DNA from: a virus
Virus record (IMG/VR): IMGVR_UViG_3300045988_122866
Span: 1 to 26,981 of that record
DNA length: 26,981 nucleotides
Reading direction: 5' to 3' (one strand)
In this document: positions 1 to 16,353 of the stretch, in pieces
How the letters are laid out: the number at the start of each line of letters is the position of its first letter
How positions within the stretch are numbered: the first letter of the stretch is position 1
Notes under the pieces: model-generated
What the model saw: only the letters and a program-made list of their open reading frames with translations
Told to the model about the DNA's origin: nothing
Databases searched by the model: none
Program-made: the position numbers and the translations under genes

Positions 1-54
1 AATTGTAGATTTGTAGATTTCTTAAAAATTGTAGATTTGTAGATTTCTTAAAAA
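1..54. repeat. Tandem direct repeat, 2 x 27 bp (aattgtagatttgtagatttcttaaaa), each unit containing a 9-bp sub-repeat tgtagattt x2
   Basis: Read directly: units 1-27 and 28-54 are identical. The window edge cuts any further copies. Confidence 0.75.
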
Positions 55-124
55 TTGTGAGAGTGTGGTACCGATCGGTTTAACAACCAACAACCACATT
101 TTCCCGTCTCCGATCTTCGAACCT

Positions 125-160
125 AAAAAAAAGAGAGACTTTTTTTAGTCTCTCTTTTTT
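125..160. terminator. Bidirectional intrinsic terminator (stem agagagact/agtctctct, T-rich loop) between an A-run and a T-run
   Basis: Perfect 9-bp inverted repeat just downstream (minus sense) of the stop of CDS 228..605. Confidence 0.7.
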
Positions 161-227
161 CATATTAGGCAATTCTTGGTGAAATTGTCGATTCTTAGGA
201 TGAAAAATATCTCACCCGACACATTGT

Positions 228-605
228 TCACTTATTGATGAAAGTATTCAAAAAATCGGCAATTACATCATCATCAGTTCTCTTGACCTTCTTAACCTTT
301 ACTGGCTCACTCTTGGGAAAAAGCACGTCAAGAAGATCGTTAACCCCGGTCATAAGACCGTAAACCTCAGCAAAGATATTCTCCACATCGGACGCGGTCA
401 ACGCAGAATCCTTGTAGCCATTAAGAGCGGCATATTCGTTAATCCGATCGGCAATTTCCTGCGCGAGCGCGGTCTTCCGATCGGCCTGCTTGGTTTCCTT
501 CTCTACCTGCTTAACTGCATCGTTTAGAGACTTAGCCATTTCGTCCGCAATAGCCTGAGCGTCCTCACCATTTTTCAGACGAGCAATAATATCATTCATA
601 TCCAT
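228..605 (-). CDS. Hypothetical small early protein, mostly helical. Start moved to the internal Met (MDMNDII...) because the track's N-terminal extension runs across the promoter.
   Basis: SD AAGAGG 7 nt before the ATG. Consensus promoter about 637-665: -35 TTGACA, 17 bp, -10 TATAAT on the minus strand. TGA stop. Confidence 0.5.
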   Translation of the reverse strand: MDMNDIIARLKNGEDAQAIADEMAKSLNDAVKQVEKETKQADRKTALAQEIADRINEYAALNGYKDSALTASDVENIFAEVYGLMTGVNDLLDVLFPKSEPVKVKKVKRTDDDVIADFLNTFINK

Positions 606-856
606 ATGAATACCTCTTTTCTTATTTTCTATATATATTATATACTTTTTTTTTAAAAATGTCAAGATTTTTTTGGACGAAAACATACGCGTGAAACAAT
701 GTAAGGGCGAAGCAATTTTTAATTAATCATAAAGGCATATGATCCTACGCGGGCTTAAAAAAGTCTTTTTTTACCATTATAACATATTTTTTATAAAAAG
801 TCAATTTTCGGGATTTTTTTGGGCCATATGGAGAGGTGCTAGAAGTATGAAAAATT

Positions 857-990
857 TTGCATATGGGTATACCGATCGGAAACTCGGGCCGGCACGTCCC
901 GCGACGGCCCGGCCATTATACCACATTTTCCGATCGGTGTCAATAGGTAAAATGCACAAAAAAATCAGCAGGTTTTAGTCAACCTGCTGA
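857..990 (-). promoter_or_regulatory. Leader module copy G: minus promoter (-35 about 938-943, -10 TATAAT about 915-920, TGG-extended), GC hairpin about 885-911 at the transcript 5' end, and a terminator hairpin about 966-989 for gene 999..1409
   Basis: Shares the core aaactcgg-[GC hairpin]-ccatt(t)ata(c)caca...tgtcaatag...A-run-terminator with six other copies. The plus-strand promoter is degenerate here. Confidence 0.6.
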
Positions 991-998
991 TTGAATAT

Positions 999-1409
999 TT
1001 ATGCAAGAAATGCACTTACAATTTCATCGAAAACCGTGGGGTTAATGTCCACGTTAAAAAAGCGGTCATTCTTGCGGAACGCTTTGGGGTATCGTCTAAT
1101 CAGTTCCGCACGCAACGCGCTTTCCGCACCCTCGGCGGGATAGTCCCCGCAAGAACGGATTCGATGAACTTCAACGCGCGTGATAGAATACTTTTTCGAG
1201 TATTCACCGATTTCATCACGCAAACGCCCTACAACATCTTTTGCGGAAGTGCCTACCTTGTTAAATTCAAGTTCGTCGTTGTGGTAAAACTTGAAAAAGT
1301 AAACCGCTTGTTCATTTTTCAGATTCTCGCCACAATTAGGCATAAACTCCATAGAAACGGGCGGTCTACCGTCCTTAAATCGGCGTAGCTTAATAGTAAT
1401 TTCTTCCAT
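999..1409 (-). CDS. Hypothetical protein, possibly GIY-YIG/T5orf172-like (VYFFKF...NKVGTSAKDVVGRLRD). Start at ATG 1409.
   Basis: SD GAGAGGA upstream. TAA stop. The 5' UTR contains the conserved stem-loop also found before the exonuclease gene. Confidence 0.5.
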   Translation of the reverse strand: MEEITIKLRRFKDGRPPVSMEFMPNCGENLKNEQAVYFFKFYHNDELEFNKVGTSAKDVVGRLRDEIGEYSKKYSITRVEVHRIRSCGDYPAEGAESALRAELIRRYPKAFRKNDRFFNVDINPTVFDEIVSAFLA

Positions 1410-1430
1410 TGACACAAAATCCTCTCTATT

Positions 1431-1460
1431 GATTGAGGTTTACCATCGTTCTCTCAACCA
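1431..1460 (-). repeat. Conserved 5'-UTR stem-loop element (GGTTGAGAGAACGATGGTAAACCTCAATC on the minus strand), copy 1
   Basis: About 28 nt identical to 4358-4385. Potential 7-bp stem GGUUGAG/CUCAAUC with a 15-nt loop. Sits in the leader of gene 999..1409. Confidence 0.6.
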
Positions 1461-1481
1461 TTATTTTTTGCACTTTTTTGC

Positions 1482-1517
1482 TTGTTTTTGGGTGAAAAAC
1501 CGCATTTTTCAGCGGTT
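1482..1517. terminator. Perfect 14-bp inverted repeat GGGTGAAAAACCGC-N8-GCGGTTTTTCACCC downstream of gene 1533..1940
   Basis: Read directly. T-rich on the plus side. Confidence 0.6.
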
Positions 1518-1532
1518 TTTCACCCTTTTTCA

Positions 1533-1940
1533 TCAATTTTTGGGCTTTCGCTTCTGAATCAGGGTCAATTCGTAGTCATTTTCGCCCACATGAAACGCAA
1601 TCATGCGCTCAATGTTCGTGATTTCCACATTTTCGCACGCATTTTCGCTGTTTTCACGCAAAAAAGTCGCAAGTTCAGCGATAATCGAGCGTTTTGTGGG
1701 ATTTTCCTTGCGCTGTCGCTTCTCAAATTTATAAGCGGTCGGCGCTTTGCGTGTTCCGGTCTTAGAATACTTGTTAGCTTCTTTGAGCTTTTCCGCGGAC
1801 AGGTCAAAGTCCTTGGCGATTCCATGGTCAATGTCATCATCGTCCATGAGAATTTCTTTTGCTTCCTCGGCAGTACAATCTAACTTTTTCATCAGATTAT
1901 CAATCTTTGCCTGAAAGTCCTTTTCACTCATTTTAGGCAT
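1533..1940 (-). CDS. Hypothetical early protein (135 aa)
   Basis: SD AAAGGGGG. Promoter about 1953-1990 (TTGACA-17-TATAAT, minus). TGA stop. Confidence 0.55.
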   Translation of the reverse strand: MPKMSEKDFQAKIDNLMKKLDCTAEEAKEILMDDDDIDHGIAKDFDLSAEKLKEANKYSKTGTRKAPTAYKFEKRQRKENPTKRSIIAELATFLRENSENACENVEITNIERMIAFHVGENDYELTLIQKRKPKN

Positions 1941-2008
1941 TTCTTTTGCCCCCTTTCAAGTATGATTATAACACCGCCGTCAGCAAATGTCAAGAGAAAT
2001 TTTTGGGA

Positions 2009-2038
2009 GCGCCTAATTTTTTTTAGGCGCTCCCCTTG
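2009..2038. terminator. Hairpin gggagcgccta-N-taggcgctccc with a T-run loop, terminator for gene 2041..2418
   Basis: 11-bp inverted repeat immediately after the stop. Confidence 0.6.
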
Positions 2039-2040
2039 AA

Positions 2041-2418
2041 TCAATGCGCCATGCGGAAGTAGGACTTGCGCTTGTCCACAATCTTTTCCACCTTGTTGGC
2101 GTCAATCATCTGGCGCAGAAGAGCGGAAACGCGCTGGTTGGTGAGGTCGCCCAGACCGTCCACATTCTTGATAAGGTCGGTCACGGTATACAGCTTGTCA
2201 GGATTCGCGGACAGCTCAGCAAAGATAATGTCCTTGTAGCCGTCGTTGGCAATCTGATTCGCGGTCGGCTTCTTATCACCGGCGTTCTTGCGAGACAGCA
2301 GGTCGATTTCGTGATTGATAAACTCAACCATAGCGGGGTCAGCCTGAACCTCGGACAGTTTGAGCAGAGCCTCGAAACGGTCGCGCTTGGTGAGCTTCTT
2401 AACAGTAGAAGTAGACAT
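2041..2418 (-). CDS. Winged-helix DNA-binding protein, paralog 1 (…QRVSALLRQMIDANKVEKIVDKRKSYF…)
   Basis: Paralogous to 4471..4845 with identical RBS context (aaaggaattgatactATG). Promoter about 2462-2490 (TTGACA-17-TGGTATACT). TGA stop. Confidence 0.6.
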   Translation of the reverse strand: MSTSTVKKLTKRDRFEALLKLSEVQADPAMVEFINHEIDLLSRKNAGDKKPTANQIANDGYKDIIFAELSANPDKLYTVTDLIKNVDGLGDLTNQRVSALLRQMIDANKVEKIVDKRKSYFRMAH

Positions 2419-2816
2419 AGTATCAATTCCTTTCTTTGGCGGTAGGTCGCTACCCTTTTGATATTATTGAGTATACCACATTTTAGAGGGCTTGTCAAGA
2501 GGTTTCGCAAACTTTTCACACGAATTACTACCCCGACCTGACGGATAATTTATTGTTTGTTGACTCAATCTATTTGTCAGCAAAAATGCTTCGAGGATAG
2601 TTGGTTCAATCAAACTCACTTTCACGTTCAACGTTTGGCTTTACAACGTGGTGTATTATGTTTTCTTCCTATACTTTCTCAAGGTCGCGCGCCCTCGGAT
2701 TTCTTGGGCTACTCCCTCTTGACATTTTCTATTATAACAGATTGCCCACAGATTGCAATTGACAAAATAACCAAATTACGGGAAAAAATTTTCTTCACTT
2801 TTGTGCAACTTTTCTC

Positions 2817-2963
2817 TTGACAAAATTGGCGGGGCGTGGTATAATGGAAAATTCGGACCGCTGCGTACGCTGGCGGTCCGCCCATTTTATCACAAAAATC
2901 CGCGTTTGTCAATAGTCAAAATAGACAAAAAAAACTGCCCATTTTTGGGCAGTTTTTTATTTT
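2817..2963. promoter_or_regulatory. Leader module copy A with convergent promoters. Plus promoter: TTGACA about 2817-2822, N17, TGGTATAAT about 2840-2845. GC hairpin 2854-2880 (cggaccgc/gcggtccg). Minus promoter: -10 about 2884-2889, -35 about 2907-2912. Bidirectional terminator 2935-2952 (ctgccca/tgggcag) between an A-run and a T-run.
   Basis: Both promoters have exact 17-bp spacing. The hairpin sits at about +1 of both transcripts. The overlapping track ORFs 2557..2820 and 2709..2912 are artefacts. Confidence 0.7.
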
Positions 2964-3192
2964 AGTCCAGCAGGTTAATTTCGCCGGGAATTGCGAAAGA
3001 ATCAGCGTCCAGCGTGGAATTGTAGTCCTCGGTAAAGAGTTCAATCATTCCACACTCCATGACGTAATTCTGAACCGACCGCCGAACGTTGTTCCAAAGG
3101 TCAGTTTTTCGGCTTTCCGCGCGGGCTTCCTGTATCTGGATAATGAGTTCGTCCAGTTTCTCGGCGGTCATGTAATTAAAATCCAAATCCAT
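2962..3192 (-). CDS. Hypothetical small protein (start at ATG, M3 of the track ORF)
   Basis: SD AAGGGGGAG. TAA stop. Closely follows CDS 3195..3473 as a two-gene unit. Confidence 0.5.
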   Translation of the reverse strand: MDLDFNYMTAEKLDELIIQIQEARAESRKTDLWNNVRRSVQNYVMECGMIELFTEDYNSTLDADSFAIPGEINLLD

Positions 3193-3194
3193 TT

Positions 3195-3473
3195 TCAAAA
3201 CTCCCCCTTAATGGCTTCTTTCCACGCGTCCCAGCCGAATTTTTCCTTGCTATCCAGTTCCTTGCCAATGTCTTTTGCGGTCAGCAGGTCAAGCTCGTCC
3301 GCAATTTCATCTTCAAAGTTTACCCAAGAGTCGTAGGTCTGAATAATGAAAACTTCATCAGCTTCAAAGACGCCACCGCACTCGGCGCAGATAATATAGT
3401 CATGGTCGATTAAAATACCCATGTGAGGGTCATTGTCATCAGGGACTACAAAAAGGACTTGTTTAGCGTTCAT
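3195..3473 (-). CDS. Hypothetical small CxxC-containing protein. Start at the third ATG (MNAKQVLF…).
   Basis: SD AAGAGGTG 7 nt upstream. The first two ATGs lie at or upstream of the predicted transcription start of promoter 3503-3531. TGA stop. Confidence 0.5.
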   Translation of the reverse strand: MNAKQVLFVVPDDNDPHMGILIDHDYIICAECGGVFEADEVFIIQTYDSWVNFEDEIADELDLLTAKDIGKELDSKEKFGWDAWKEAIKGEF

Positions 3474-3502
3474 GTGAAACACCTCTTTCATTTGATACAT
3501 TG

Positions 3503-3541
3503 ATTATACCATAGGGAATAGGACTTGTCAAGCCCTATTCC
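3503..3541 (-). promoter_or_regulatory. Consensus promoter (TTGACA-17-TGGTATAAT) with the -35 inside a 9-bp inverted repeat GGGAATAGG…CCTATTCCC
   Basis: Read directly. The inverted repeat also lies just downstream of the stop of the exonuclease gene. Confidence 0.65.
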
Positions 3542-3551
3542 CCTATTTTTT

Positions 3552-4328
3552 TTAGCTCATGTTTATCATGGGATTTTCCTTAATGTTTCGCATGAGCGCG
3601 CGCTGAAACTCGGTAGGCTTGGGGCGTTCCACCGTGGGAGTTTTGAAAAGGGACTTTTCCATTTCCTTGTGCTGTCGGACACAATAGCGCAGAATCTCAA
3701 CTTCAATGAGAACATCTTCTAATCCTGTGTGGGATTCATCAAAGCTGTCTTCACCGCTGATAAAGCGATAGAGAATTTCTGCGGTGAAACGGAGCTGTCC
3801 GTTCTTGGTCTTGTAGCCATTCTTTTCGCAATAGTCGCGGTAAGTGGGCATTTTGCCCATAACCTGTCGCGCCATTTTCAACGTGTCCCAAACTTCAAGG
3901 CCGTAGGGGAAGAAATAGCGATACTTGCTTTTCGTGTCCCATCTTTGCGCGTTGTTGCAGGCGTTAAGGTCGAACCGCATATTGTGAGCGCAGACAAAAG
4001 AGCAGTTATAACGCTCGACACATTCGCAGAACGCAAGACGAATTTCGTAAAGGTCAGCCATAATGCGAGTGCCGTTTTGAATGTCCTCAATGTAGCGGGG
4101 AATCTTATCGGCATAGTATGTGGACTGCATAAGGTCGCGCTCGTAGCAGAAAATGTCGCGATTCACAAAAGAATGAGTTTCATAAACATTTCCCTTGGAA
4201 TCAATGACCGCCCACCCAAAGTCGTAGGGAAGCACATTTGACATATCCAGCTTATCGCCGTCCTGAATGGTGTTTGCAGTTTCCGTGTCCAGCATAATAC
4301 CGTAGTTCCTGCGCCTATCAATACCCAT
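3552..4328 (-). CDS. DnaQ-like DEDDh 3'-5' exonuclease
   Basis: Motifs MLDTETA (Exo I), CAHNMRFDLN (Exo II) and HTGLEDV (Exo III with His). SD GGAGACG. TAA stop. Confidence 0.75.
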   Translation of the reverse strand: MGIDRRRNYGIMLDTETANTIQDGDKLDMSNVLPYDFGWAVIDSKGNVYETHSFVNRDIFCYERDLMQSTYYADKIPRYIEDIQNGTRIMADLYEIRLAFCECVERYNCSFVCAHNMRFDLNACNNAQRWDTKSKYRYFFPYGLEVWDTLKMARQVMGKMPTYRDYCEKNGYKTKNGQLRFTAEILYRFISGEDSFDESHTGLEDVLIEVEILRYCVRQHKEMEKSLFKTPTVERPKPTEFQRALMRNIKENPMINMS

Positions 4329-4357
4329 TTTATCGTCTCCTATTGGAAAAGTAGATT

Positions 4358-4385
4358 GAGGTTTACCATCGTTCTCTCAACCTCT
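4358..4385 (-). repeat. Conserved 5'-UTR stem-loop element, copy 2, in the leader of the exonuclease gene
   Basis: Near-identical to 1431-1460. Lies between promoter (TTGACA-17-TATACT about 4387-4415) and the SD. Confidence 0.6.
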
Positions 4386-4435
4386 AAATATAGTATAGCA
4401 CTTTGCTATTGGTTTGTCAATAGTTTTTTTGTAGG

Positions 4436-4466
4436 GCAGGGGATTTTTTTTATCCCCTGCCCTTTT
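4436..4466. terminator. Hairpin gggcagggga-T8-tcccctgccc followed by a T-run
   Basis: 10-bp inverted repeat just beyond the stop of gene 4471..4845. Confidence 0.6.
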
Positions 4467-4470
4467 CCCT

Positions 4471-4845
4471 TTACGCGAGGGAGAAGTAGGACTTGCGCTT
4501 GTCAACCGTCTTGACAACCGTGCCTGCATCAATCATCTGACGCAGAAGAGCAGAAACGCGCTGGTTGGAATACTCCGCAAGCTCGGGAACGCCCTTGATG
4601 AGGTCGGTCACCGTATACAGCTTGTCAAGGTTGGCGGTCATCTCGTCCAGAATGACCTGCTTCACGGCGTCATTCTCCATCTGCTTGGCCGTGGGCTTCT
4701 TGTCGCCCGCGTTCTTCTTGGCGAGCAGTTCAATCTCATGCTCGATGAACGCCACCATATCAGGATTTGCCTGAACCTCGCTCATTTTGAGCAGAGCCTC
4801 GAAACGGTCGCGCTTAGTGAGCTTCTTAGTAGTAGAAGTAGCCAT
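4471..4845 (-). CDS. Winged-helix DNA-binding protein, paralog 2. Start at M18 (MATSTTKKLTKRDRF…).
   Basis: N-terminus and RBS match paralog 2041..2418. Promoter about 4880-4915 (TTGACA-18-TATAAT). TAA stop. Confidence 0.6.
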   Translation of the reverse strand: MATSTTKKLTKRDRFEALLKMSEVQANPDMVAFIEHEIELLAKKNAGDKKPTAKQMENDAVKQVILDEMTANLDKLYTVTDLIKGVPELAEYSNQRVSALLRQMIDAGTVVKTVDKRKSYFSLA

Positions 4846-5345
4846 AGTATCAATTCCTTTCTGGTTTTTAAGACTGTCCTTGTCTATGGTAGTCATTATA
4901 TCATAGGCGGGAGTAGGTTGTCAATAGGTTTTTGCAATTTTTTTTAGGGGCGGTCGCGAGGTTTATTACTATACATCTTGTTTATACCTACCTTTATCTA
5001 TACTCTTAAACCAATTCAAAATTTACTAAGCCATTAGTTTTTAAGGCGGTGGACGAGCATCAGAAATCATCTTGTTTTTACCTCTCTCATTTGATGTATT
5101 CATTATACCCTACGTAGAACGGTTTGTCAAGGGGTTTTTCAAACTTTTTTTGAAAGTTTGTTCGGCACGCCACGCTTGGAACATTCCGTCGGATTTTGGT
5201 ATAATGGTCAAAGGAACTGCCTTTCCGCAGGTCTTACTCTTTCCTCCTGACATTATGTAGTATAGCAGATTGGTAATAATTTGTCTATTGATAAAATAAC
5301 CAAATAACGGGAAAAAATAAAATTGAAATTTGTACGAAATTTCTC

Positions 5346-5490
5346 TTGACAAAAATGCTGGCAGGGTGTATAATGGTAAATTCCGGTCGCAACATGCGTT
5401 AGCGACCGGCCAATTTTAGCACATTCAGATGGTTTTGTCAATAGTCAAAGTAAACAAAAAAATCTCCCCATTTTTGGGGAGATTTTCTTT
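5346..5490. promoter_or_regulatory. Leader module copy B. Plus promoter: TTGACA about 5346-5351, N17, TATAAT about 5369-5374. Hairpin 5383-5409 (ccggtcgc/gcgaccgg). Minus promoter: -10 about 5413-5418, -35 about 5436-5441. Terminator 5462-5483 (atctcccc/ggggagat).
   Basis: Same architecture as copy A. The hairpin stem sequence differs but pairing is preserved. Confidence 0.7.
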
Positions 5491-10824: not shown

Positions 10825-10896
10825 TTATTTCCCCTTTTCACATTTAACGCATTGAGCGTGTGTTCCGCACTTTCCATCACAATAAGGACATTTCAT
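10825..10896 (-). CDS. Micro-ORF, 23 aa, five Cys (MKCPYCDGKCGTHAQCVKCEKGK), zinc-ribbon-like. Coordinates +/-1.
   Basis: SD AAAGGGGAA. Its ATG lies 1 nt after the TAA of the preceding 38-aa ORF. Confidence 0.4.
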   Translation of the reverse strand: MKCPYCDGKCGTHAQCVKCEKGK

Positions 10897-10897
10897 T

Positions 10898-11014
10898 TTA
10901 GTTCCCCTTTCTCAGACTCTCTTCAATTTCTTCCCATTCGCTTCTGAACAATTCAATGTTCGTATTGCCGATACACTCTAAAATAGCTTTAATCTGTTCC
11001 TCAGTAAATTTCAT
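10898..11014 (-). CDS. Micro-ORF, 38 aa (MKFTEEQIKAILECIGNTNIELFRSEWEEIEESLRKGN). Coordinates +/-1.
   Basis: SD AAAGGGGAA. Promoter with hairpin-embedded -35 at about 11046-11078. Confidence 0.4.
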   Translation of the reverse strand: MKFTEEQIKAILECIGNTNIELFRSEWEEIEESLRKGN

Positions 11015-11092
11015 TTTTTTTATTCCCCTTTCCTTTGATACATTAAGTATAGCAGAAAAAGGGCTTTTTGTCAAGCCCTTTTCTTATTTTTT

Positions 11093-11455
11093 TCAATTTT
11101 CTTTTCTAATGGAGTAGTAGCTCCGACTTCCCTTTTTGGTGTAGGTCAACTTTCTGTCAATCCAGCAAAGATGACCACAATACCACGAAATAGTGGCGCA
11201 AGAATATTCCTTGCCAGTCTCACGGTAAAGAATAAACTGAATTTCCGTAGGGCGCAGGGGCTTTTCCGCCTTTGAGAGAACATCGAGCATCATGTTTTTC
11301 ATCATGGTGTTGCGGATTTCCTGTTTCAGTTTCCGCGCTTCCTGGGCTTCTTCATACTGTGAGCAAGCTCTCTCCGCGTGGATTTCATCAATTCCGGTGA
11401 AAGTGCCATTGTCAAGGAATTTCTTCAAAAGGCTATAAGTTTCAAAGTTCATCAT
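11093..11455 (-). CDS. Hypothetical protein with a C-terminal winged-helix-like segment
   Basis: …LRPTEIQFILYRETGKEYSCATISWYCGHLCWIDRKLTYTKKGSRSYYSI looks like a wHTH. TGA stop. Confidence 0.45.
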   Translation of the reverse strand: MMNFETYSLLKKFLDNGTFTGIDEIHAERACSQYEEAQEARKLKQEIRNTMMKNMMLDVLSKAEKPLRPTEIQFILYRETGKEYSCATISWYCGHLCWIDRKLTYTKKGSRSYYSIRKEN

Positions 11456-11555
11456 GTCAGTATTCCCTTTCCTTTATTGTGCTTTTATTATAGCATCTGC
11501 TTTTGAATTTGTCAAGAAGTTTTTTGGAAAAAGAGGGAAAAATTTTCCCTCTTTT

Positions 11556-11825
11556 TTACCACTTTACAGTAAGAATACCGTTTGAGTAAGAAGTGGTATA
11601 GCCATAATTCCGCAAAAGATTTTTCAGAGCTTCTTTTACAGCTTCATCTTCAATGGCAACGAGACAGCGAGACAGATAATTTTCGCCCTTTTCCGCGCGG
11701 TCTTCAATATCTTTCATCAGATTTTCTTCGAGATAGGCACGGGCCGTAGCAGTATCTTCTGCGCGCTTGGCGTCGCGAGTTTCCTTGGCGATAGTTGCTA
11801 TTTCGTGAGCATATTTAATTTCCAT
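11556..11825 (-). CDS. Hypothetical protein (89 aa)
   Basis: Track ORF. Promoter with hairpin-embedded -35 at about 11845-11889. TAA stop. Confidence 0.5.
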   Translation of the reverse strand: MEIKYAHEIATIAKETRDAKRAEDTATARAYLEENLMKDIEDRAEKGENYLSRCLVAIEDEAVKEALKNLLRNYGYTTSYSNGILTVKW

Positions 11826-11903
11826 GGTGTTTCTCCCTTTCCTTTATTGTATCTTTATTGTAGCATATAGGGCTTGTTTTGTCAAGCCCTATATACATTT
11901 TTT

Positions 11904-12212
11904 TTAACAGTAAGCCAGATTCCCGCGCGCCCAGCCATATACGCTGATTTGATTGCACGCCTTGCCAATTTCAAGCGCCTGCTTCTTGGTCTGCACCCTC
12001 TTGGACTTGTCAACATAATAGATGCCGTTCGCAAGCCATACGCCGCAGTTTCCGCCGAAGTCCTTAACCGCATTGATAGCTTCGCGTGCGGTCTTACATT
12101 CAACGCCGTTGGTAGCGACTTGCCAGCCGGACTTGTAGTTGACTTTCTTGCCATATTTGAGAGTCAGGCCGTCATTTTCAGCGAGCTTGCGAATAGAACG
12201 AATGTTAATCAT
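11904..12212 (-). CDS. Hypothetical protein (about 102 aa, start MINIRSIRKL…)
   Basis: SD AAAGGGAT. First gene downstream of module E's minus promoter. TAA stop. Confidence 0.5.
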   Translation of the reverse strand: MINIRSIRKLAENDGLTLKYGKKVNYKSGWQVATNGVECKTAREAINAVKDFGGNCGVWLANGIYYVDKSKRVQTKKQALEIGKACNQISVYGWARGNLAYC

Positions 12213-12341
12213 GTTGTTATCCCTTTCCGGTTTGGTAGGTTTTCCTTCCCTTACTGTGATTATAGTATAGCACCGATTCGGGATTCTGTCTATTGACATT
12301 ATGCACAAACTTTCGCCATAAAAATTTGTGCAATCCGCCTA

Positions 12342-12470
12342 TTGACAAAAACTCGGCGCGCCAGGTCCGTTCGCGCGCCGGCCGATTATACTACAAAGTT
12401 TTGGGACTGTCAATAGACAAAATGACAAAAAAATTCGGCAGGATTTTGTGTATCCTGCCGAATTTTTTTT
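12342..12470 (-). promoter_or_regulatory. Leader module copy E. Hairpin 12355-12379 (ggcgcgcc…gcgcgcc). Minus promoter: -10 TATAAT about 12385-12390, -35 about 12408-12413. Terminator 12434-12462 (11-bp stem ttcggcaggat/atcctgccgaa plus a T8 run).
   Basis: Same core as copy D. The terminator directly follows the TAA of 12469..12663. Confidence 0.6.
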
Positions 12471-12663
12471 AATCTTTCCAACTCTCGATGACTTCACCGG
12501 TCATTGCGTCGATAATGTCAACCGAGAGGACGTTGTCCGCGTCCATAAACTTCTGACCGAGGGCGTATGCATTTTCCTGTCCCGCGACAGACACTTCATA
12601 GCGATAATGCCCCATGTCGCCCGCCTTGTAGTTGTAGTAGTTAACAGAAACAATAAATAACAT
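12469..12663 (-). CDS. Hypothetical small protein (start MLFIVSVNYY…)
   Basis: SD AAAGGGGAT. Promoter at about 12680-12720. TAA stop. Confidence 0.5.
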   Translation of the reverse strand: MLFIVSVNYYNYKAGDMGHYRYEVSVAGQENAYALGQKFMDADNVLSVDIIDAMTGEVIESWKD

Positions 12664-12748
12664 TTGGTTTATCCCCTTTCTTTTTATACTCTTATTATAC
12701 CATAGATTCAAGATTTGTCAAGGACTTTTTTCAAGAAAGAAGCGGGGC

Positions 12749-12940
12749 TTAGTAGCCCCGCTTTTCCAAACGGTCCAGGCGTCCAGCAAGGATTCTCGCA
12801 AGAACGGGCTTTGTCCATTTCATCAGACTATCAGCAGTGCTTTGGCAGTTTGCCCAAACCTCCCAAGTTTGGCCCTCGCGAATAATGTCAGCCTTGCGCA
12901 TCTTCATGAACTTCTCGTAATACATTTCGAAAGTATCCAT
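12749..12940 (-). CDS. Hypothetical small protein (63 aa)
   Basis: Track ORF. TAA stop inside hairpin gcggggct-tagt-agccccgc. Confidence 0.5.
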   Translation of the reverse strand: MDTFEMYYEKFMKMRKADIIREGQTWEVWANCQSTADSLMKWTKPVLARILAGRLDRLEKRGY

Positions 12941-13048
12941 AACTAACCTTTCTGGTGTTTGGGATTTTCCTTTCCCTTTCTGATATTATAATACCACAGA
13001 CCGCAAAGAATGTCAAGTGTTTTTTTTCAAAAAAAAAAGAAAAGTTTT

Positions 13049-13171
13049 TCAACTTCTCTTTCTACGGCGAATCGCTCTCTTTACGCGGTGCTCCACGTAT
13101 TCGATGAGCGCACCCGCGCCGATAACACCAACATAGATAGCGAGAAGAACAAGACCATCGTGAGTAGACAT
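13049..13171 (-). CDS. Micro-ORF, about 40 aa, with one TM helix and a basic tail (MSTHDGLVLLAIYVGVIGAGALIEYVEHRVKRAIRRRKRS). Coordinates +/-2.
   Basis: SD AAGAGGTAAATCAA. Promoter with hairpin-embedded -35 at about 13205-13239. The overlapping plus-strand track ORF 13010..13432 is an artefact. Confidence 0.35.
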   Translation of the reverse strand: MSTHDGLVLLAIYVGVIGAGALIEYVEHRVKRAIRRRKRS

Positions 13172-13251
13172 TTGATTTACCTCTTTCTTTCTTTTGATGT
13201 ATTCATTATACCAAACAAAGGGGCTTTTGTCAAGCCCCTTTTTTATTTTTT

Positions 13252-13530
13252 TTACAGTTCTTTTCCAACCTTAACAAATACGATTTTCTCCGGCAAGACT
13301 TCGATGCCCTTAATGCCCGCTTCATTGACTTCCTTGTTCGTGCAAGTCCACCCAAACTCATCTAATGCGTCCCATTCACCGTTCCCACTGGGAGTCCAAG
13401 TGTTGAATCCGTCATCAATCATCACGTCATAGCCCTTGCTGTAAGTCTCCATAATCTGTTCGATAGTCATTTGTTGTATTCCCCTTTCCTTTGATGATAC
13501 TATTATAGCATTTCGGGATAGGAATGTCAA
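13252..13530 (-). CDS. Hypothetical protein (92 aa)
   Basis: Track ORF. Promoter at about 13495-13530 (TGTCAAG … TATAAT). TAA stop. Confidence 0.5.
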   Translation of the reverse strand: MTFLSRNAIIVSSKERGIQQMTIEQIMETYSKGYDVMIDDGFNTWTPSGNGEWDALDEFGWTCTNKEVNEAGIKGIEVLPEKIVFVKVGKEL

Positions 13531-13653
13531 GTGGTTTTTGGCAAAAAATGGAAAAAATTTTGCTTTAACGCTTTACTGTGGTAAAGTTCGGGCTGGGACG
13601 CCCTACACGCGCACAACGGCGTAAGAGAAAGAGCGGGAAGCCCGCTCCCGCCC

Positions 13654-13863
13654 TTAATACATTTCGCTACTGGGTTCAACTGTGAAATACTCAACATTCC
13701 GCAAGTCGAGCTTGCCATAGGACTTGTCATTATACATTGTAGCACCTGTCGCAAGTAAGTCATTCATCTTACCTGCAATCTCCATAGCGCGCTGTTCCTC
13801 GAACGCCTGCTGGAAGAGATAGCCCTGACCGCCCTTAGTGTAATAAACAATGCCGTAAATCAT
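13654..13863 (-). CDS. Hypothetical protein (69 aa)
   Basis: SD AAAGGGGAA. Terminator gagcggg-aag-cccgctc follows the TAA. Overlapping track ORF 13527..13763 rejected. Confidence 0.5.
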   Translation of the reverse strand: MIYGIVYYTKGGQGYLFQQAFEEQRAMEIAGKMNDLLATGATMYNDKSYGKLDLRNVEYFTVEPSSEMY

Positions 13864-13993
13864 TTTTCATTCCCCTTTCCTTTTGTGATTATAGAATACC
13901 ACATTCTAACTGATTTGTCAAGACCTTTTTGCAAAAAATCTTTGTTAATTTTTTAACAATCTACGCCGTTAGGAAGGGAGCATTACTGCTCCC

Positions 13994-14326
13994 TTATTCT
14001 GCGTAAAGACTCATCAATTCATTTATCTTATCAATGGCTTCATCAATGTCATCGAGGTAGTTGTCTGCCAACATACTTGCATGGCTGGCTTCCTCGTAGT
14101 CATCATACGCGTCGCTGAGTTCCTGTGTGCCAAACTTGTCTGCCTGTTCGAGGGCGTCTACCTCGTGCCATGCCCTCGACATCTCACCACGCTTAACCTG
14201 ACAGTCGCGGAACGCCTGCTTGCTTTCGTTCATTAACCGTTCCTTTTCAGCTTTGAGAGCCTTGTAAAAATCCTGATTAGTCATTTGAGTATTCCCCTTT
14301 CTTATTGTATCTACATTGTAGCACAT
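13994..14326 (-). CDS. Hypothetical acidic protein (110 aa)
   Basis: Track ORF. Promoter at about 14340-14375. Terminator gggagca-ttac-tgctccc after the TAA. Confidence 0.5.
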   Translation of the reverse strand: MCYNVDTIRKGNTQMTNQDFYKALKAEKERLMNESKQAFRDCQVKRGEMSRAWHEVDALEQADKFGTQELSDAYDDYEEASHASMLADNYLDDIDEAIDKINELMSLYAE

Positions 14327-14413
14327 TACCGCGCATTTGTCAAGACCTTTTTTACTCTTCTCTGCTTGTTAATTTTTTAACAATCTTCGCCGATCCGCAA
14401 GAAAGAGAGAGAC

Positions 14414-14779
14414 TTAATAAGCCTCTCTCCATACCTTAATGATTGTATCATCTTCCACAGTATCAGTGTCATTGTCGTTAATCCACAAGAGCAAGAAGTC
14501 GTTGTCATCAATGTTGAGTGCTTCCACGTCCCACAGGTTGCCCTGCTCATCAATGAGCGTCAGGGTATCGCCCTCGCGTGCGTAGACCTCTGCGCCGACG
14601 AAACGAATACTTCCGCGTTCCGTGCCTGCACCGCACCAATTCTCAATGACCGAGAGGTCGTAGGACTGGGGCGCTTCCTCACAGGCTTCCGCGGTTGTGT
14701 GGTCGTGGAGTGGAGTGAAAAGAGATGCGCAGAGAATGATGCCAAGAGCGATGGTGATGATTTTGGAAACGTTTTTCAT
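14414..14779 (-). CDS. Secreted or lipoprotein-like protein with an N-terminal signal peptide
   Basis: MKNVSKIITIALGIILCASLF… then an acidic domain. Promoter at about 14795-14845 (TTGACA-17-TATACT). TAA stop. Confidence 0.5.
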   Translation of the reverse strand: MKNVSKIITIALGIILCASLFTPLHDHTTAEACEEAPQSYDLSVIENWCGAGTERGSIRFVGAEVYAREGDTLTLIDEQGNLWDVEALNIDDNDFLLLWINDNDTDTVEDDTIIKVWREAY

Positions 14780-14929
14780 TTTGATTTACCTCTTTCTTTT
14801 TGATGATACAAGTATAGCACATGGCTACTGGATTGTCAATAGTCATTTTGCACAAATGTGATGGCGTGGTTTCGGGTATTTTGACGATTGTGCATTATGA
14901 CGAAGTTTCGGCGAGAAATTTGTGCAAAC

Positions 14930-15000
14930 TGCTGATTTTTATAAAACTCGGCTCGCCACTACCGCCAGCGAGCCGAGCAACGTTTACCGGGGTGTTTATG
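14930..15000. promoter_or_regulatory. Degenerate leader-module copy F: aaactcgg plus a 10-bp-stem hairpin 14948-14977 (ctcggctcgc/gcgagccgag). No intact flanking promoter.
   Basis: Shares the aaatttgtgcaa…aaactcgg-hairpin context with copies D and E. The conserved -10 box is absent. Confidence 0.4.
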
Positions 15001-15147
15001 CGGGATGTGGTTGTGCGTTCTGCAAAAGAGCGAGAGTAAGGCTGGTATACTCTCAGAGAATAAACGAGTTAGAACCTTATGGATGGGGGTGTATTTCGGG
15101 AAAAAATTTTTTTTGATTTGTGTTTTTTCTTTTGCGTGGTCAAAACG

Positions 15148-15310
15148 CAATCTAAATCAATTTTCAATTTCAGAATACGGTTTAAAACAATAAATCAATT
15201 TTTAATTTCAGATTACGAAGAATAATTTAAATTTACTATAATTAATTTTCAATTTCAGAATACGATTTAAAACAACAAATCAATTTTCGATTTCAAATTA
15301 CGATTTCTTT
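15148..15310. repeat. Iteron-like tandem direct repeats, 3-4 units of about 30-40 bp with core AAATCAATTTTCAATTTCAGAATACGATTTAAAACAA, in an AT-rich stretch
   Basis: A 32-nt near-exact repeat (about 15160-15190 vs 15245-15275, one mismatch) plus two partial units. Located at the early/late boundary. Confidence 0.65.
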
Positions 15311-15394
15311 TTTCTACCCCTTTTGGGCTTCTCACCCCACATAAGAGTGTATAATCCAGAAGTAGCAGAATAAGTAGCTTTCTGCTGATACTTT

Positions 15395-15790
15395 TTAGCA
15401 ACTGCCTTCAAGGGACTGAGTGGTTTCCGCATTTAATTTTTCCTCCATATATTCGATTAATTTATCTTTATATTTACAACTATCAATATATCTATTAATA
15501 GTATTTATATCATATTTTTCCATTAAGTGTTCTAATACATATTTGTATTTATTCAACTGATATTCTTCTTGTTCTTCTTTGGTGCTTAATTGAGCCTTTT
15601 CCGCGTCTGATAAAGGTCTGTAAGTAATCGTTCTTGACCCATTATCCTTTTGCTCAATACGTATTGTTTTAAATAATTTCCAATCTCTTACAAAAGGGTC
15701 TTTATCTCTTGTAGTGTTAAAATATTCTTGTTCTAATCTAAATATTACCGCGTCTATCCCTCTTACTTCAAAAGGCTGGTTCCATCCCAT
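15395..15790 (-). CDS. Hypothetical protein (start MGWNQPFEV…)
   Basis: SD GGGAGGA 8 nt before the internal ATG. Overlaps the end of the upstream gene by about 20 nt. TAA stop. Confidence 0.5.
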   Translation of the reverse strand: MGWNQPFEVRGIDAVIFRLEQEYFNTTRDKDPFVRDWKLFKTIRIEQKDNGSRTITYRPLSDAEKAQLSTKEEQEEYQLNKYKYVLEHLMEKYDINTINRYIDSCKYKDKLIEYMEEKLNAETTQSLEGSC

Positions 15791-16160
15791 CTTCAATATC
15801 CTCCCATTCAAATGTTCCATCATCTAATTCATATACAAATGCTTGTTTATAAAATGATGAAACAATTCCATCATTTGTAATTCCTTTTGGACTATTTTTT
15901 ACATCATGAAAACAATTATAAACAATTAGTCCTTGCGTTTCATATCGTGAAAAATCTACTGCCCTTCCCTCAAAATCATAATTATAAAATATGTTTAATA
16001 ATAGCATACACTCATATTGTGCGATTGGCCATTTATTTAATTCTTTTTGCTAATTTGCCATTTTTTGGTATAATACCCAAAAGGCTTTTCTATATAACCA
16101 TAAAAAAAGGAGTGATGCTACTAACGCACAACTCAATAATACAATAAAAATAGTTTCCAT
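15768..16160 (-). CDS. Membrane-anchored protein with one in-frame TAG codon (at about 16050-16052) read through
   Basis: ATG at 16160 with SD AAGGAGTA. Promoter at about 16186-16220 (TTGACA-17-TATTAT). The frame is continuous with track ORF 15768..16007 across a single TAG. N-terminal TM helix IFIVLLSCALVASLLFLWLY. Confidence 0.5.
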
Positions 16161-16299
16161 AAATACTCCTTTTCTTTTTTCTTATAATAATAATAAAATA
16201 AAAATAAAGAAATGTCAAGTCATAGAGCGTGATTGGGCAAAAGTTATTTGTTTTGTTAAAAAAATTTTTAAATATAAAAAGAAAAAATTTTAAATGAAA

Positions 16300-16330
16300 C
16301 TTGACAAAAAAAATTTTTTCGAGTATAATA
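16300..16330 (+). promoter_or_regulatory. Consensus sigma70 promoter TTGACA-N17-TATAAT driving the plus-strand late-type operon
   Basis: cTTGACAaaaaaaattttttcgagTATAATat. GGAGGT SD then ATG at 16354. Coordinates +/-1. Confidence 0.75.
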
Positions 16331-16353
16331 TAAATATAGACTGGAGGTAAAAA

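What the first reader, a model, noticed from the sequence alone, without database searches (positions are those of the whole stretch)
1..16350. Two-compartment genome: a TAG-free GC-rich early arm and an AT-rich recoded late arm, meeting at a strand switch
About 40 early genes all sit on the minus strand in DNA of roughly 48-50% GC. Their stops were checked one by one and are TAA or TGA only. Downstream, the DNA drops to about 30-35% GC and TAG is a sense codon on both strands. The boundary at 15.1-16.3 kb holds iteron-like repeats and diverging promoters. Such a composition jump inside a single phage is unusual. It raises three possibilities: a modular chimera, different evolutionary sources for the two arms, or a code-dependent early/late split where early genes must be translatable before a suppressor exists.
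Basis: partly seen in the sequence, partly recalled or inferred. Interest (0 to 1): 0.7.

Follow-up and report, generated by a model that had tools for sequence, protein, structure and literature searches.

The report
Early/late junction of an amber-recoded gut phage
This window is the junction in a large gut phage between a block of small early genes with host-type promoters that avoid the TAG codon and an AT-rich head-and-packaging block that reads TAG as glutamine; the code split is already known for such phages, and only the sharp, conserved codon-usage jump appears undescribed.

Summary
GC drops at position 15,101 from 43% to 31%, not from 48-50%. Most of the drop is at third codon positions (GC3 0.53 versus 0.20). 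The 35 confidently called left-arm genes are all on the minus strand, contain no in-frame TAG and stop with TAA or TGA. The six genes at 16.35-24.0 kb carry 33 in-frame TAGs, which align with glutamine in relatives.

It is not a chimeric assembly. The same junction and GC step recur in about 50 related contigs from many metagenomes. The published relative phAss-1 shows the same gradient.

The left arm holds 28 near-consensus sigma-70 promoters where 0.1 are expected. It is hypervariable even between close relatives. A suppressor tRNA (CUA) lies in a promoter-bearing tRNA array on the early strand of a close relative.

This fits the published model in which early genes are compatible with the standard code and late genes are recoded. 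The picture is not strictly two compartments:
- Two AT-rich minus-strand genes lie beyond the GC boundary, and one of them has a sense TAG.
- The major capsid block is late but TAG-free.
- Flanking DNA in relatives has intermediate GC.

Verdict: a new member of a known kind, of moderate interest.

The parts
1..15100 (-). Putative early ('host-takeover'-like) arm. It holds 35 confidently called small genes (37-258 aa) with strong Shine-Dalgarno sites. Coding GC is 45.5% and GC3 is 0.53. There is no in-frame TAG, and stops are 21 TAA / 14 TGA.
   Evidence: Gene calling. Codon statistics. GC. The few family hits are an AbrB/MazE-type domain (8239-8691), a HAD/PNK-phosphatase-like protein (6495-6995) and PHROG 20187 (3552-4328).
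637..14839 (-). Array of 28 sigma-70-type promoters (TTGACA-17-TATAAT, at most 1 mismatch). 25 have an extended -10 TG. 17 end 30-34 nt before a gene start. Several -35 boxes sit inside terminator-like hairpins.
   Evidence: 28 observed versus 0.10 expected per strand from Markov shuffles. Repeat families D1-D7.
2817..2912 (.). One of three copies of a conserved element (the others at 5346-5441 and 8088-8181). A perfect + strand promoter and a - strand promoter converge on a GC-rich hairpin. Hairpin-only copies lie at about 879-925, 10149-10195, 12347-12380 and 14942-14975.
   Evidence: 80% column identity; z-scores -3.2 to -4.9 for 4 of 7 copies; 5 of 10 pairs show compensatory changes among the 7 copies.
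15155..15303 (.). Iteron-like array of four ~25-nt repeats (AATCAATTTTCAATTTCAGAATACG) at spacings of 38, 47 and 38 nt. It lies immediately after the GC change point at 15,101.
   Evidence: The core ATTTCAAAT(T/C)ACG is repeated 2-3 times at the equivalent place in divergent relatives L018 and L038. Function not determined.
15395..15790 (-). AT-rich minus-strand gene of 131 aa, GC3 0.26, no TAG.
   Evidence: No informative family hit.
15768..16160 (-). AT-rich minus-strand gene of 130 aa with a hydrophobic N-terminus, GC3 0.18. It has one sense TAG at 16050-16052.
   Evidence: The TAG position is Gln in L006, L014 and L016, with the alignment continuing across it.
16190..16329 (.). Divergent promoter pair at the strand switch: 16218-16190 (-) TTGACA-17-TATTAT and 16301-16329 (+) TTGACA-17-TATAAT.
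16354..17409 (+). 351-aa protein that PHROGs annotates as 'sigma factor' (phrog_5767), with a C-terminal Cys4 zinc-ribbon-like tail. It has 2 sense TAGs and GC3 0.16, and sits directly behind a perfect host-type promoter.
17459..18646 (+). Probable small terminase subunit (phrog_3314), 395 aa, 9 sense TAGs.
   Evidence: It lies immediately upstream of TerL. The gene in the same position in phAss-1 is annotated as terminase small subunit. This label is positional inference.
18646..20385 (+). Terminase large subunit, 579 aa, 6 sense TAGs.
   Evidence: phrog_2 and phrog_15503/24618. TAG columns are mostly Q in relatives.
20398..20754 (+). Small homing/HNH-type endonuclease, 118 aa, 3 sense TAGs, lying between TerL and the portal gene.
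   Evidence: phrog_9084 and phrog_559, E about 1e-26.
20771..22417 (+). Portal protein, about 548 aa, 10 sense TAGs.
   Evidence: phrog_2739, E 3e-82..
22427..24004 (+). Head-module protein of unknown role (phrog_3313), 525 aa, 3 sense TAGs.
24022..26743 (+). TAG-free late block of three genes: 24022-24939, 24957-26063 (major capsid protein homologue) and 26150-26743. GC is 35-40% and GC3 is 0.18-0.31. CAG and AAG are preferred.
   Evidence: 0 TAG in 870 codons. The 368-aa protein is 50% identical to phAss-1 ORF25, which its authors annotate as major capsid protein and do not flag for TAG. My own structure model failed, with pLDDT 39.

Best explanation
WHAT THE WINDOW IS
The window is the divergent early/late junction of a large (about 100 kb or more) virulent-type siphophage. 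It belongs to the phAss-1 / Enterococcus-EF1-like group and uses genetic code 15 (TAG = Gln) in part of its genome.

SHOWN
- The left arm is a dense array of host-type (sigma-70/sigma-A consensus) promoter-leader-small-gene cassettes on the minus strand. It avoids TAG completely.
- From 15.1 kb the DNA becomes AT-rich (GC3 about 0.2) and TAG is used as a glutamine codon. This holds in two minus-strand genes and in the plus-strand operon: a sigma-annotated protein, TerS-like, TerL, endonuclease, portal and a head protein.
- The capsid block at 24.0-26.7 kb again avoids TAG.
- Close relatives carry a suppressor tRNA(CUA). It sits at the end of a tRNA array that is on the early strand and is studded with the same consensus promoters.

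INFERRED MECHANISM
1. On infection, host RNA polymerase fires the consensus promoters.
2. Left-arm proteins are made under the host's standard code, while release factor 1 still reads TAG as stop.
3. The tRNA array, including the suppressor, is transcribed in the same phase.
4. Only when suppressor tRNA has accumulated can TAG-containing messages be translated full length. This includes the two genes that sit right behind host-type promoters at the junction.
5. TAG therefore acts as a translational delay on packaging and head genes.

WHERE TAG IS FOUND
- TAG sense codons are also confined to genes with very low GC3, where CAG is rare.
- They are absent from the most highly expressed late genes.
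- So codon-bias class and temporal class jointly decide where TAG is tolerated.

THE GC STEP
- It is mainly a synonymous-site (codon-usage) step.
- It is conserved in the clade despite rapid turnover of early genes.
- Its cause is not settled. The most likely cause is different translational or mutational regimes for the two gene classes, combined with horizontal exchange of early cassettes.
For: CODE 15
- In-frame TAGs occur in TerL, portal and other genes.
- 177 of 328 residues aligned to window TAGs in 13 relatives are Q, with many all-Q columns.
- All late stops are TAA.
- Suppressor tRNA(CUA) at L172:20280-20369, in a contig that also carries the sigma-annotated gene at 99% identity. It is homologous to a phAss-1 suppressor.

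EARLY ARM
- 28 promoters where 0.1 are expected, 25 of them with TG, 17 at a fixed 30-34 nt from a start codon. There are none on the + strand of the late operon apart from 16301.

TAG PARTITION
- Window: 0/3,377 versus 33/2,516 codons (P about 6e-20).
- Pooled over 29 lineages: 0.9 versus 9.9 per 1,000 codons.

NOT A CHIMERA
-.

SAME ARCHITECTURE IN RELATIVES
- Cultured standard-code relative EF1: a minus-strand promoter array diverging from the late operon.
- phAss-1: the late + block has GC3 0.28 and 164 TAG in 8,932 codons. The distal minus arm with promoters and tRNAs has GC3 0.63 and 8 TAG in 8,416 codons.
- In phAss-1, the authors' own table flags ORFs 11-22 as TAG-containing and none of ORFs 164-183.

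JOINT CONTROL BY GC3 AND GENE CLASS
- Spearman GC3 versus TAG density is -0.43 in a 55-kb relative and -0.52 in phAss-1.
- From the gene table, low-GC3 genes on the early strand of the relative have 0 TAG in about 335 codons. I expect about 4.6 (my arithmetic).
- Late genes with GC3 of at least 0.30 have 0 TAG in about 673 codons.

PUBLISHED MODEL
-.
Against: - There are no expression data. 'Early' and 'late' rest on promoter consensus, gene content and analogy.
- No tRNA lies in the window. The suppressor was found only in a related contig about 30-37 kb beyond the window's left end.
- The two TAG-bearing genes at the junction have host-type promoters. TAG use therefore follows composition class at least as well as promoter class. 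This fits a non-adaptive by-product as well as it fits gating.
- The absence of TAG stops in the left arm is not distinguishable from the clade baseline of about 5%. Some recoded relatives do have a few TAGs in early-arm ORFs.
- The sigma-factor label is unverified.
- The phAss-1 tRNA set is nearly complete and decodes both G/C-ending and A/T-ending codons. It gives no specific support for a late-gene-tailored tRNA supply.
- Lineages with few or no TAGs in the late module still show the GC3 step: L066 0.49 versus 0.35, L033 0.59 versus 0.33. The composition split therefore does not depend on recoding.
Confidence: 0.72

Rival explanations
1. Compositional by-product. TAG sense codons accumulate passively wherever AT pressure at synonymous sites is strong, through CAG to TAG transitions once a suppressor exists. 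They are absent where codon bias favours CAG. On this view the TAG-free early arm follows from its GC-rich codon usage and is not an adaptation to being translated before the suppressor.
For: - Gln codons in the left arm are CAG 63 / CAA 12 / TAG 0. In the AT-rich late genes they are CAG 11 / CAA 60 / TAG 33. In the capsid block they are CAG 19 / CAA 12 / TAG 0.
- GC3 and TAG density are anticorrelated gene by gene.
- Homing-endonuclease genes with GC3 0.15 and 9-10 TAGs sit inside TAG-free blocks.
- The two junction genes with host-type promoters still carry TAG.
- Borges et al. propose low GC as the precursor of recoding.
Against: - Low-GC3 genes on the early strand of the 55-kb relative have no TAG: about 335 codons, about 4.6 expected, P about 0.01 (from the table).
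- Temporal class therefore matters beyond composition.
- This view does not explain why the early arm is GC-rich in the first place.
Confidence: 0.35
2. Different evolutionary source. The early arm is a pool of cassettes exchanged horizontally with GC-richer phages or hosts. Its composition would then reflect ancestry rather than selection in this genome.
For: - The left arm is mosaic or absent at the nucleotide level even in relatives 96-99% identical across the right arm. It cannot be aligned at all in relatives that are 73% identical in the right arm.
- Repeated promoter/hairpin cassettes could serve as recombination sites.
- Non-coding GC is also higher on the left, 0.37 versus 0.26.
- TGA makes up 40% of left-arm stops and 0 of 9 stops in the late operon.
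- Left-arm GC3 varies widely between lineages (0.24-0.59), while late-arm GC3 stays at 0.17-0.35.
Against: - The offset is present in 27 of 29 lineages and in phAss-1 despite complete sequence turnover.
- Promoter, leader and ribosome-binding-site cassettes are uniform across the arm.
- The one early protein I searched has more than 4,400 homologues, and those examined lie in the same phage group.
- No donor was identified.
Confidence: 0.25
3. Assembly chimera, or phage DNA joined to host DNA. On this view the two arms belong to different molecules.
For: Only the abrupt GC step itself.
Against: - A single 14-kb alignment at 96% identity crosses the boundary in an independent contig.
- 49 loci of 21 kb from many datasets share the arrangement.
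- Phage genes continue beyond the far side of the GC-rich island in relatives.
- EF1, an isolated phage, has the same layout.
Confidence: 0.01

Closest known systems
Partial-genome stop-codon recoding in gut phages (Borges et al. 2021/2022, bioRxiv 10.1101/2021.08.26.457843; Yutin et al. 2021, PMC7886860)
   Same: - TAG is read as Gln in structural and packaging genes.
- Another part of the genome is compatible with the standard code.
- A phage-encoded suppressor tRNA is present.
- Stops in recoded genes are mostly TAA.
- Low GC is associated with recoding.
- The proposed logic is that early genes are translated with the host code and late genes after the code switch.
   Different: - This is a different phage lineage from the named clades (Lak, crAss-like and the gemstone clades).
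- Here the TAG partition coincides with a very large within-genome synonymous-site split (GC3 0.53 versus 0.20). That split also exists in relatives with few or no TAGs.
- The capsid block is late but TAG-free.
- I did not see the lysis genes.
phAss-1 and the 'Caudoviricetes code 15 clade' (Babkin et al. 2023, PMC10607447), together with Enterococcus phage EF1-like relatives
   Same: - The major capsid homologue is 50% identical to phAss-1 and about 40% to EF1.
- TAG to Gln occurs in TerL, portal and the TerS-like gene.
- The major capsid protein is TAG-free.
- The suppressor tRNA with an insertion in the variable region is homologous.
- The tRNA array and a consensus-promoter array lie on the strand opposite the late genes.
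- phAss-1 shows the same GC gradient, 0.31-0.56.
   Different: - There is only distant sequence similarity and no nucleotide match.
- Synteny differs from phAss-1, which has no sigma-annotated gene next to TerS.
- EF1 uses the standard code and lacks the GC step: GC3 0.24 versus 0.18.
- The paper does not discuss the intragenomic GC heterogeneity, promoters or early/late logic.
Early 'host-takeover' or hyperplastic regions of large virulent phages: the SPO1 host-takeover module, the T5 pre-early region, and the PeSL promoter-stem-loop cassettes of T4-type phages (from my own knowledge; not checked in the library)
   Same: - Many small genes of unknown function, each preceded by a strong host-type promoter.
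- Stem-loops adjacent to or overlapping promoters.
- High gene turnover between close relatives.
   Different: - No homology was tested or found.
- Whether this arm lies in a terminal repeat or enters the cell first is unknown.
- Recombination at the cassettes was not demonstrated.
Codon-usage differences between phage early and late genes (Mioduser, Goz and Tuller 2017, PMC5683454)
   Same: Early and late gene sets differ in synonymous codon composition. [quoted passage not shown]
   Different: - The magnitude here is extreme, a 33-point GC3 difference across one boundary.
- It is coupled to a codon reassignment.

Membership tests
Code-15 (TAG=Gln) recoded phage | In-frame TAG codons in conserved essential genes that are fragmented under the standard code | tested here: met
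   TerL 6, portal 10-11, TerS-like 9, sigma-annotated 2, endonuclease 3, head protein 3. Coverage of the right arm by ORFs of at least 100 aa rises from 0.67 to 0.97 when TAG is read as sense.
Code-15 (TAG=Gln) recoded phage | TAG positions correspond to glutamine in homologues | tested here: met
   177 of 328 aligned non-TAG residues are Q, followed by E 53 and K 29, with many all-Q columns. Q also aligns to the minus-strand TAG.
Code-15 (TAG=Gln) recoded phage | A suppressor tRNA with anticodon CUA encoded by the phage | tested here: inconclusive
   There is none in the window. One is present in a close relative's contig (L172:20280-20369, contig 3300045988_119030), which also carries the 99%-identical junction gene. 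It was not shown for the window's own genome.
Code-15 (TAG=Gln) recoded phage | Glutamine is actually inserted at TAG (proteomic evidence) | not testable with these tools
   This needs metaproteomics of the kind used by Peters et al. 2022 (PMC9523058, listed).
Early-standard / late-recoded regulatory model (Borges et al.) | A gene block compatible with the standard code that carries early-gene hallmarks | tested here: met
   0 TAG in 35 genes. 28 consensus host-type promoters where 0.1 are expected.
Early-standard / late-recoded regulatory model (Borges et al.) | The code-change machinery is itself encoded in standard code and is expressible early | tested here: met
   In relatives the tRNA array ending in tRNA(CUA) is on the early strand and has 5 consensus promoters. 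In phAss-1 the suppressor tRNAs lie in the minus arm among consensus promoters. This is shown for relatives only.
Early-standard / late-recoded regulatory model (Borges et al.) | Temporal order of expression, and dependence of late proteins on suppression | not testable with these tools
   No expression data are available.
Early-standard / late-recoded regulatory model (Borges et al.) | Preferential recoding of lysis genes | not tested
   No lysis genes lie in the window or in the 55 kb I stitched together.
phAss-1 / EF1-like phage group | Homologous signature proteins (major capsid protein, TerL, portal) | tested here: met
   Major capsid tblastn gives 50% identity to phAss-1, 58% to MT836163 and about 40% to the Enterococcus phages EF1/H1. 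No formal phylogeny was made.
Sigma factor (for the gene at 16354-17409) | Recognisable sigma-70 family regions 2 and 4 | tested here: inconclusive
Promoter-stem-loop (PeSL-like) shuffling cassettes | Repeated early promoter plus stem-loop units flanking small ORFs, with mosaic gene content among close relatives | tested here: met
   Repeat families D1-D7, and terminator-like hairpins containing the -35 box. Mosaic left arm. Recombination breakpoints at the cassettes were not tested.
Chimeric assembly | The junction is unique to one assembly and absent from independent contigs | tested here: not met
   The junction recurs in dozens of contigs.

The most novel reading that the evidence does not exclude
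The phage runs two translation regimes from one genome, and TAG reassignment is only the most visible part of a wholesale codon-usage switch.
- Early cassettes would be kept at a host-like, GC3-rich codon usage. They must be translated at once by the unmodified host apparatus (host tRNA pool, active RF1).
- The rest of the genome would drift to extreme AT-richness. It is translated after the phage has installed its own roughly 20-36 tRNAs and the suppressor.
- The early-arm GC3 of each lineage (0.24-0.59) would then track its host, and the late arm would not.
Probability: 0.25. Interest if true: 0.6.

Novelty: new member of a known kind. Interest (0 to 1): 0.4.

Why it matters
- The window gives a clean, well-anchored example of code partitioning in a phage group other than the crAss-like, Lak and gemstone clades.
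- The elements needed to test the 'code switch as timer' model lie side by side: a host-promoter array, two TAG-bearing genes directly behind host-type promoters, and a TAG-free capsid block.
- The conserved 30-point GC3 step shows that TAG use is nested within a broader codon-usage dichotomy.
- That matters for gene callers, which need to switch code and codon model within one genome.
- It matters for binning and host prediction by composition. The GC-rich arm and the AT-rich arm would be assigned differently, and one contig of this phage already sits in a GTDB 'Mollicutes' MAG.
- It also bears on whether recoding is adaptive regulation or a by-product of AT pressure.

Tried and rejected
- Nucleotide search of the phage collection with 25 kb of the window found no match.
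- Rfam and tRNA scans of the window found nothing.
- Pfam gave no hits for any right-arm protein. NCBIfam and PDB sequence searches of the sigma-annotated protein found nothing.
- The AF2 model of the capsid homologue failed with pLDDT 39, so I ran no fold search on it.
- Host inference did not work.
- The idea that phage tRNAs are tailored to AT-rich late codons was not supported. The phAss-1 set is nearly complete and includes tRNAs for G- and C-ending codons.
- I first treated the absence of TAG stops in the left arm as evidence of adaptation to the suppressor. I withdrew this after finding that TAG-terminated ORF calls are about 5% in early arms of both recoded and non-recoded relatives.
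- The eight TAG-terminated ORFs in a naive standard-code tiling of the left arm and boundary have TTG or GTG starts and lack a ribosome-binding site. Several begin inside promoter boxes. I rejected all eight as spurious.
- Three walking steps of 10 kb to the left and one to the right found no tRNA. The array appeared only at the fourth and fifth leftward steps.

Full report
**1. Observation**

A 1-kb sliding window shows GC of 0.38-0.47 across 1-15,000. It falls to 0.27-0.30 at 15-17.5 kb, stays at 0.28-0.36 to 24 kb and rises to 0.37-0.41 at the right end. A two-segment likelihood fit places the step at 15,101, from 0.432 to 0.311. It is 42.7% overall and 45.5% in coding sequence, and only individual genes reach 50-53%.

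Under the standard code, ORFs of at least 100 aa cover 67% of the right arm. With TAG read as sense they cover 97%. The + strand then resolves into abutting long ORFs with 2, 9, 6, 3, 11 and 3 in-frame TAGs, followed by three ORFs with none.

I re-called the left arm by requiring a Shine-Dalgarno site. This gave 35 minus-strand genes with no in-frame TAG in 3,377 codons and stops of 21 TAA / 14 TGA. At the late-operon rate of 33 TAG in 2,516 codons I would expect 44 TAGs, so P is about 6e-20.

**2. Identity of the genes**

PHROG profiles identify the right-arm genes:
- TerL and the portal protein.
- A homing-type endonuclease between them.
- A family annotated 'sigma factor' at 16,354-17,409.
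- Conserved head-module families of unknown function.

The 368-aa protein at 24,957-26,063 is 50% identical to ORF25 of phage phAss-1 and about 40% identical to proteins of Enterococcus phages EF1/H1. The authors of phAss-1 annotate ORF25 as major capsid protein and do not flag it as TAG-containing.

phAss-1 is classified under 'Caudoviricetes code 15 clade'. It was described as a TAG-to-Gln phage with three suppressor tRNAs (PMC10607447).

In 13 diverse relatives, the residues aligned to the window's TAGs are Q in 177 of 328 cases, with many invariant-Q columns. The window therefore belongs to a known group of code-15 phages.

**3. Not an assembly artefact**

- The protein at 16,354-17,409 has 475 relatives in IMG/VR.
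- In all 49 loci that carry 10 kb on both sides, the left flank consists of small minus-strand genes. In nearly all of them the left flank is GC-richer than the right, typically 0.39-0.46 versus 0.30-0.38.
- Across 29 non-redundant lineages the GC3 difference is 0.07-0.33, with a median of 0.25. It exceeds 0.1 in 27 lineages.
- One contig aligns to window 12,969-26,978 in a single 96%-identical segment that crosses both the GC step and the strand switch.

**4. What the left arm is**

It contains 28 matches to TTGACA-N16-18-TATAAT with at most one mismatch on the minus strand, where 0.10 are expected. Of these, 25 have the extended -10 TG and 17 end 30-34 nt before a start codon. The + strand of the late operon has none. 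The only one on that side is a perfect promoter at 16,301-16,329, just before the first late-side gene. It is paired with a divergent 11/12 promoter at 16,218-16,190.

The promoter, leader and ribosome-binding-site units form repeat families. Several -35 boxes lie inside terminator-like hairpins.

Most proteins have no known family. The exceptions are an AbrB/MazE-type domain, a HAD phosphatase-like protein and a widespread phage family.

The arm is hypervariable. Relatives that are 96-99% identical over the right arm are mosaic, 80-95% identical or unalignable on the left. Relatives at about 73% identity on the right share no alignable left-arm DNA.

I infer that this is an early, host-RNA-polymerase-driven accessory ('host-takeover'-like) module. 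The isolated standard-code relative EF1 has the same layout, with 10 consensus promoters on a block of small minus-strand genes diverging from the late operon. EF1 shows almost no composition step: GC3 is 0.24 versus 0.18.

**5. The composition split is chiefly a codon-usage split**

| Gene set | GC1 | GC2 | GC3 |
|---|---|---|---|
| Left arm | 0.505 | 0.340 | 0.529 |
| 16.35-24 kb genes | 0.445 | 0.312 | 0.197 |
| Capsid block | 0.528 | 0.347 | 0.277 |

Gln codons shift in parallel:

| Gene set | CAG | CAA | TAG |
|---|---|---|---|
| Left arm | 63 | 12 | 0 |
| AT-rich late genes | 11 | 60 | 33 |
| Capsid block | 19 | 12 | 0 |

Non-coding DNA is also GC-richer on the left, 0.37 versus 0.26. 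Codon selection alone is therefore not the whole story.

The published phAss-1 genome shows the same thing more strongly:
- GC in 2-kb windows ranges from 0.31 to 0.56.
- The + strand late block has GC3 0.28 with 164 TAG in 8,932 codons.
- The distal minus arm, which holds the consensus promoters and the tRNAs, has GC3 0.63 with 8 TAG in 8,416 codons.
- Per-gene Spearman correlation of GC3 with TAG density is -0.52.
- The paper reports only whole-genome GC and does not mention promoters, early genes or heterogeneity.

**6. It is not simply two compartments meeting at a strand switch**

- The GC and TAG boundary at 15.1 kb lies 1.1 kb to the left of the strand switch.
- Two AT-rich minus-strand genes lie between them. 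One has a TAG at 16,050-16,052 that is a Gln codon in three close relatives.
- The capsid block is late but TAG-free: 0 in 870 codons with 11 expected.
- I stitched 55 kb of a 96%-identical relative from four loci with zero overlap mismatches. In it the GC-rich island is about 16 kb long.
- Beyond the island lie another roughly 15 kb of minus-strand, TAG-free genes of intermediate GC3 (0.19-0.47). A homing endonuclease with GC3 0.15 and 9 TAGs interrupts them.
- Further away on the same strand are genes with GC3 of 0.12-0.17, some of which contain TAGs.

From the gene table I draw two stratified comparisons:
- Low-GC3 genes on the early strand have 0 TAG in about 335 codons, where about 4.6 are expected.
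- Late genes with GC3 of at least 0.30 have 0 TAG in about 673 codons, where about 9 are expected.

Both temporal or strand class and codon-bias class therefore constrain TAG use.

**7. The suppressor**

The window has no tRNA. I walked leftwards through relatives. This reached an array of 16-19 tRNAs on the early strand, starting about 30 kb beyond the window's left end.

In contig 3300045988_119030 the array ends with a 90-nt tRNA with anticodon CTA. That contig also carries the junction gene at 99% identity. The tRNA's anticodon arm and its unusual insertion in the variable region match one of the phAss-1 suppressors. Five consensus promoters lie within the array. In phAss-1 the three suppressors lie in the minus arm among the same kind of promoters.

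**8. Mechanism**

Shown:
- The architecture of the junction.
- The reassignment of TAG to Gln.
- The partition of TAG between gene sets.
- A suppressor tRNA in close relatives.

Inferred:
- Host polymerase fires the consensus promoters at once.
- The TAG-free early genes are translated under the host code.
- The tRNA array supplies the suppressor.
- TAG-bearing messages become fully translatable only afterwards. These include the two genes directly behind host-type promoters at the junction.

This is the model of Borges et al.. It agrees with Yutin et al.'s observation that reassignment is mostly confined to late genes.

A non-adaptive reading remains viable: TAG accumulates where AT pressure replaces CAG. 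It is favoured by the fact that TAG follows composition class even behind host-type promoters. It cannot explain the TAG-free low-GC3 early-strand genes.

The composition step does not require recoding. Lineages with 0-4 TAGs in the late module still show GC3 differences of 0.14-0.26.

The absence of TAG stops on the left is not informative, because the clade baseline is about 5%.

**9. Unverified labels**

- 'TerS' for 17,459-18,646 is positional.
- The iteron-like repeats at 15,155-15,303 have a core that recurs at the equivalent site in divergent relatives. Their role as origin, operator or insulator is unknown.
- The cumulative GC-skew minimum at 15.5-16.5 kb coincides with the transcription switch. 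It therefore cannot serve as evidence for a replication origin.

**10. Verdict**

The chimera reading is excluded. The code-dependent early/late reading is supported but already published for other phages. It is also implicit in the published annotation of a relative.

What appears undescribed is how large and how well conserved the synonymous-site split is, and that it tracks TAG use gene by gene. Early/late codon-usage differences as such are known (PMC5683454). I rate the finding a new member of a known kind, with moderate interest.

Noticed in passing
window 2817-2912, 5346-5441, 8088-8181; hairpin-only copies at about 879-925, 10149-10195, 12347-12380 and 14942-14975: This is a recurring element in which a perfect + strand promoter and a - strand promoter converge on an 8-bp GC-rich hairpin followed by a T-run on both strands. 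The hairpin starts about 5 nt after the -10 box. Among the 7 copies, 5 of 10 stem pairs show compensatory changes. It might be a bidirectional terminator or insulator embedded in promoters, or it might yield tiny RNAs. Rfam has no match.
   Followed up: partly
window 24022-26743: The three late genes that include the major capsid homologue have no TAG and prefer CAG and AAG, unlike the neighbouring late genes. The capsid gene is also unflagged for TAG in phAss-1 and its two sister genomes. This suggests that the most highly expressed late genes avoid the suppressed codon.
   Followed up: partly
window 20398-20754; L083:16454-17401: Homing/HNH-type endonuclease genes are very AT-rich and TAG-dense. 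The window gene has 3 TAGs in 118 codons. In a relative, one has 9-10 TAGs at GC3 0.15, and that one is inserted in an otherwise TAG-free block.
   Followed up: no
L151 (CAMELE010000001.1, 163,874 bp): A contig of a MAG titled 'uncultured Mollicutes bacterium', held in the species-representative genome collection, carries this phage's early arm at 88-96% identity in a mosaic pattern. It is probably a phage contig that was mis-binned or misclassified.
   Followed up: partly
L172:20280-20369 and L155:3350-3440: The suppressor tRNA(CUA) of this lineage and one of the phAss-1 suppressors share a roughly 16-nt insertion after the anticodon stem, giving tRNAs of 90-91 nt. ARAGORN labels them tRNA-Pyl. 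The first gene of the tRNA array (L172:11043-11113) is called with a 2-nt anticodon.
   Followed up: no
window 2041-2418 versus 4471-4896 (repeats 1988-2435 / 4415-4862): A duplicated early gene together with its upstream region, 73-78% identical. These are the two most GC-rich genes of the arm, with GC3 of 0.71 and 0.68.
   Followed up: no
L172:1-10000: This is an extremely AT-rich stretch (18-29% GC, GC3 0.12-0.17) on the early strand upstream of the tRNA array. It includes a radical-SAM-like ORF with 11 TAGs next to long ORFs with none.
   Followed up: no
L021:7536-7619; L038:8132-8465: Divergent relatives carry other short repeat arrays near the same border. One example is three tandem 28-nt units containing the palindrome TTGTTAAATTTTTAACAA. 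This suggests that the border is a conserved site for DNA-binding proteins whose recognition sequences differ between lineages.
   Followed up: no
window 8239-8691: An early-arm protein has an N-terminal AbrB/MazE (SpoVT-type) DNA-binding domain (Pfam PF04014, E 3e-10; PHROG 'antitoxin'). It is a candidate regulator or anti-defence factor.
   Followed up: no
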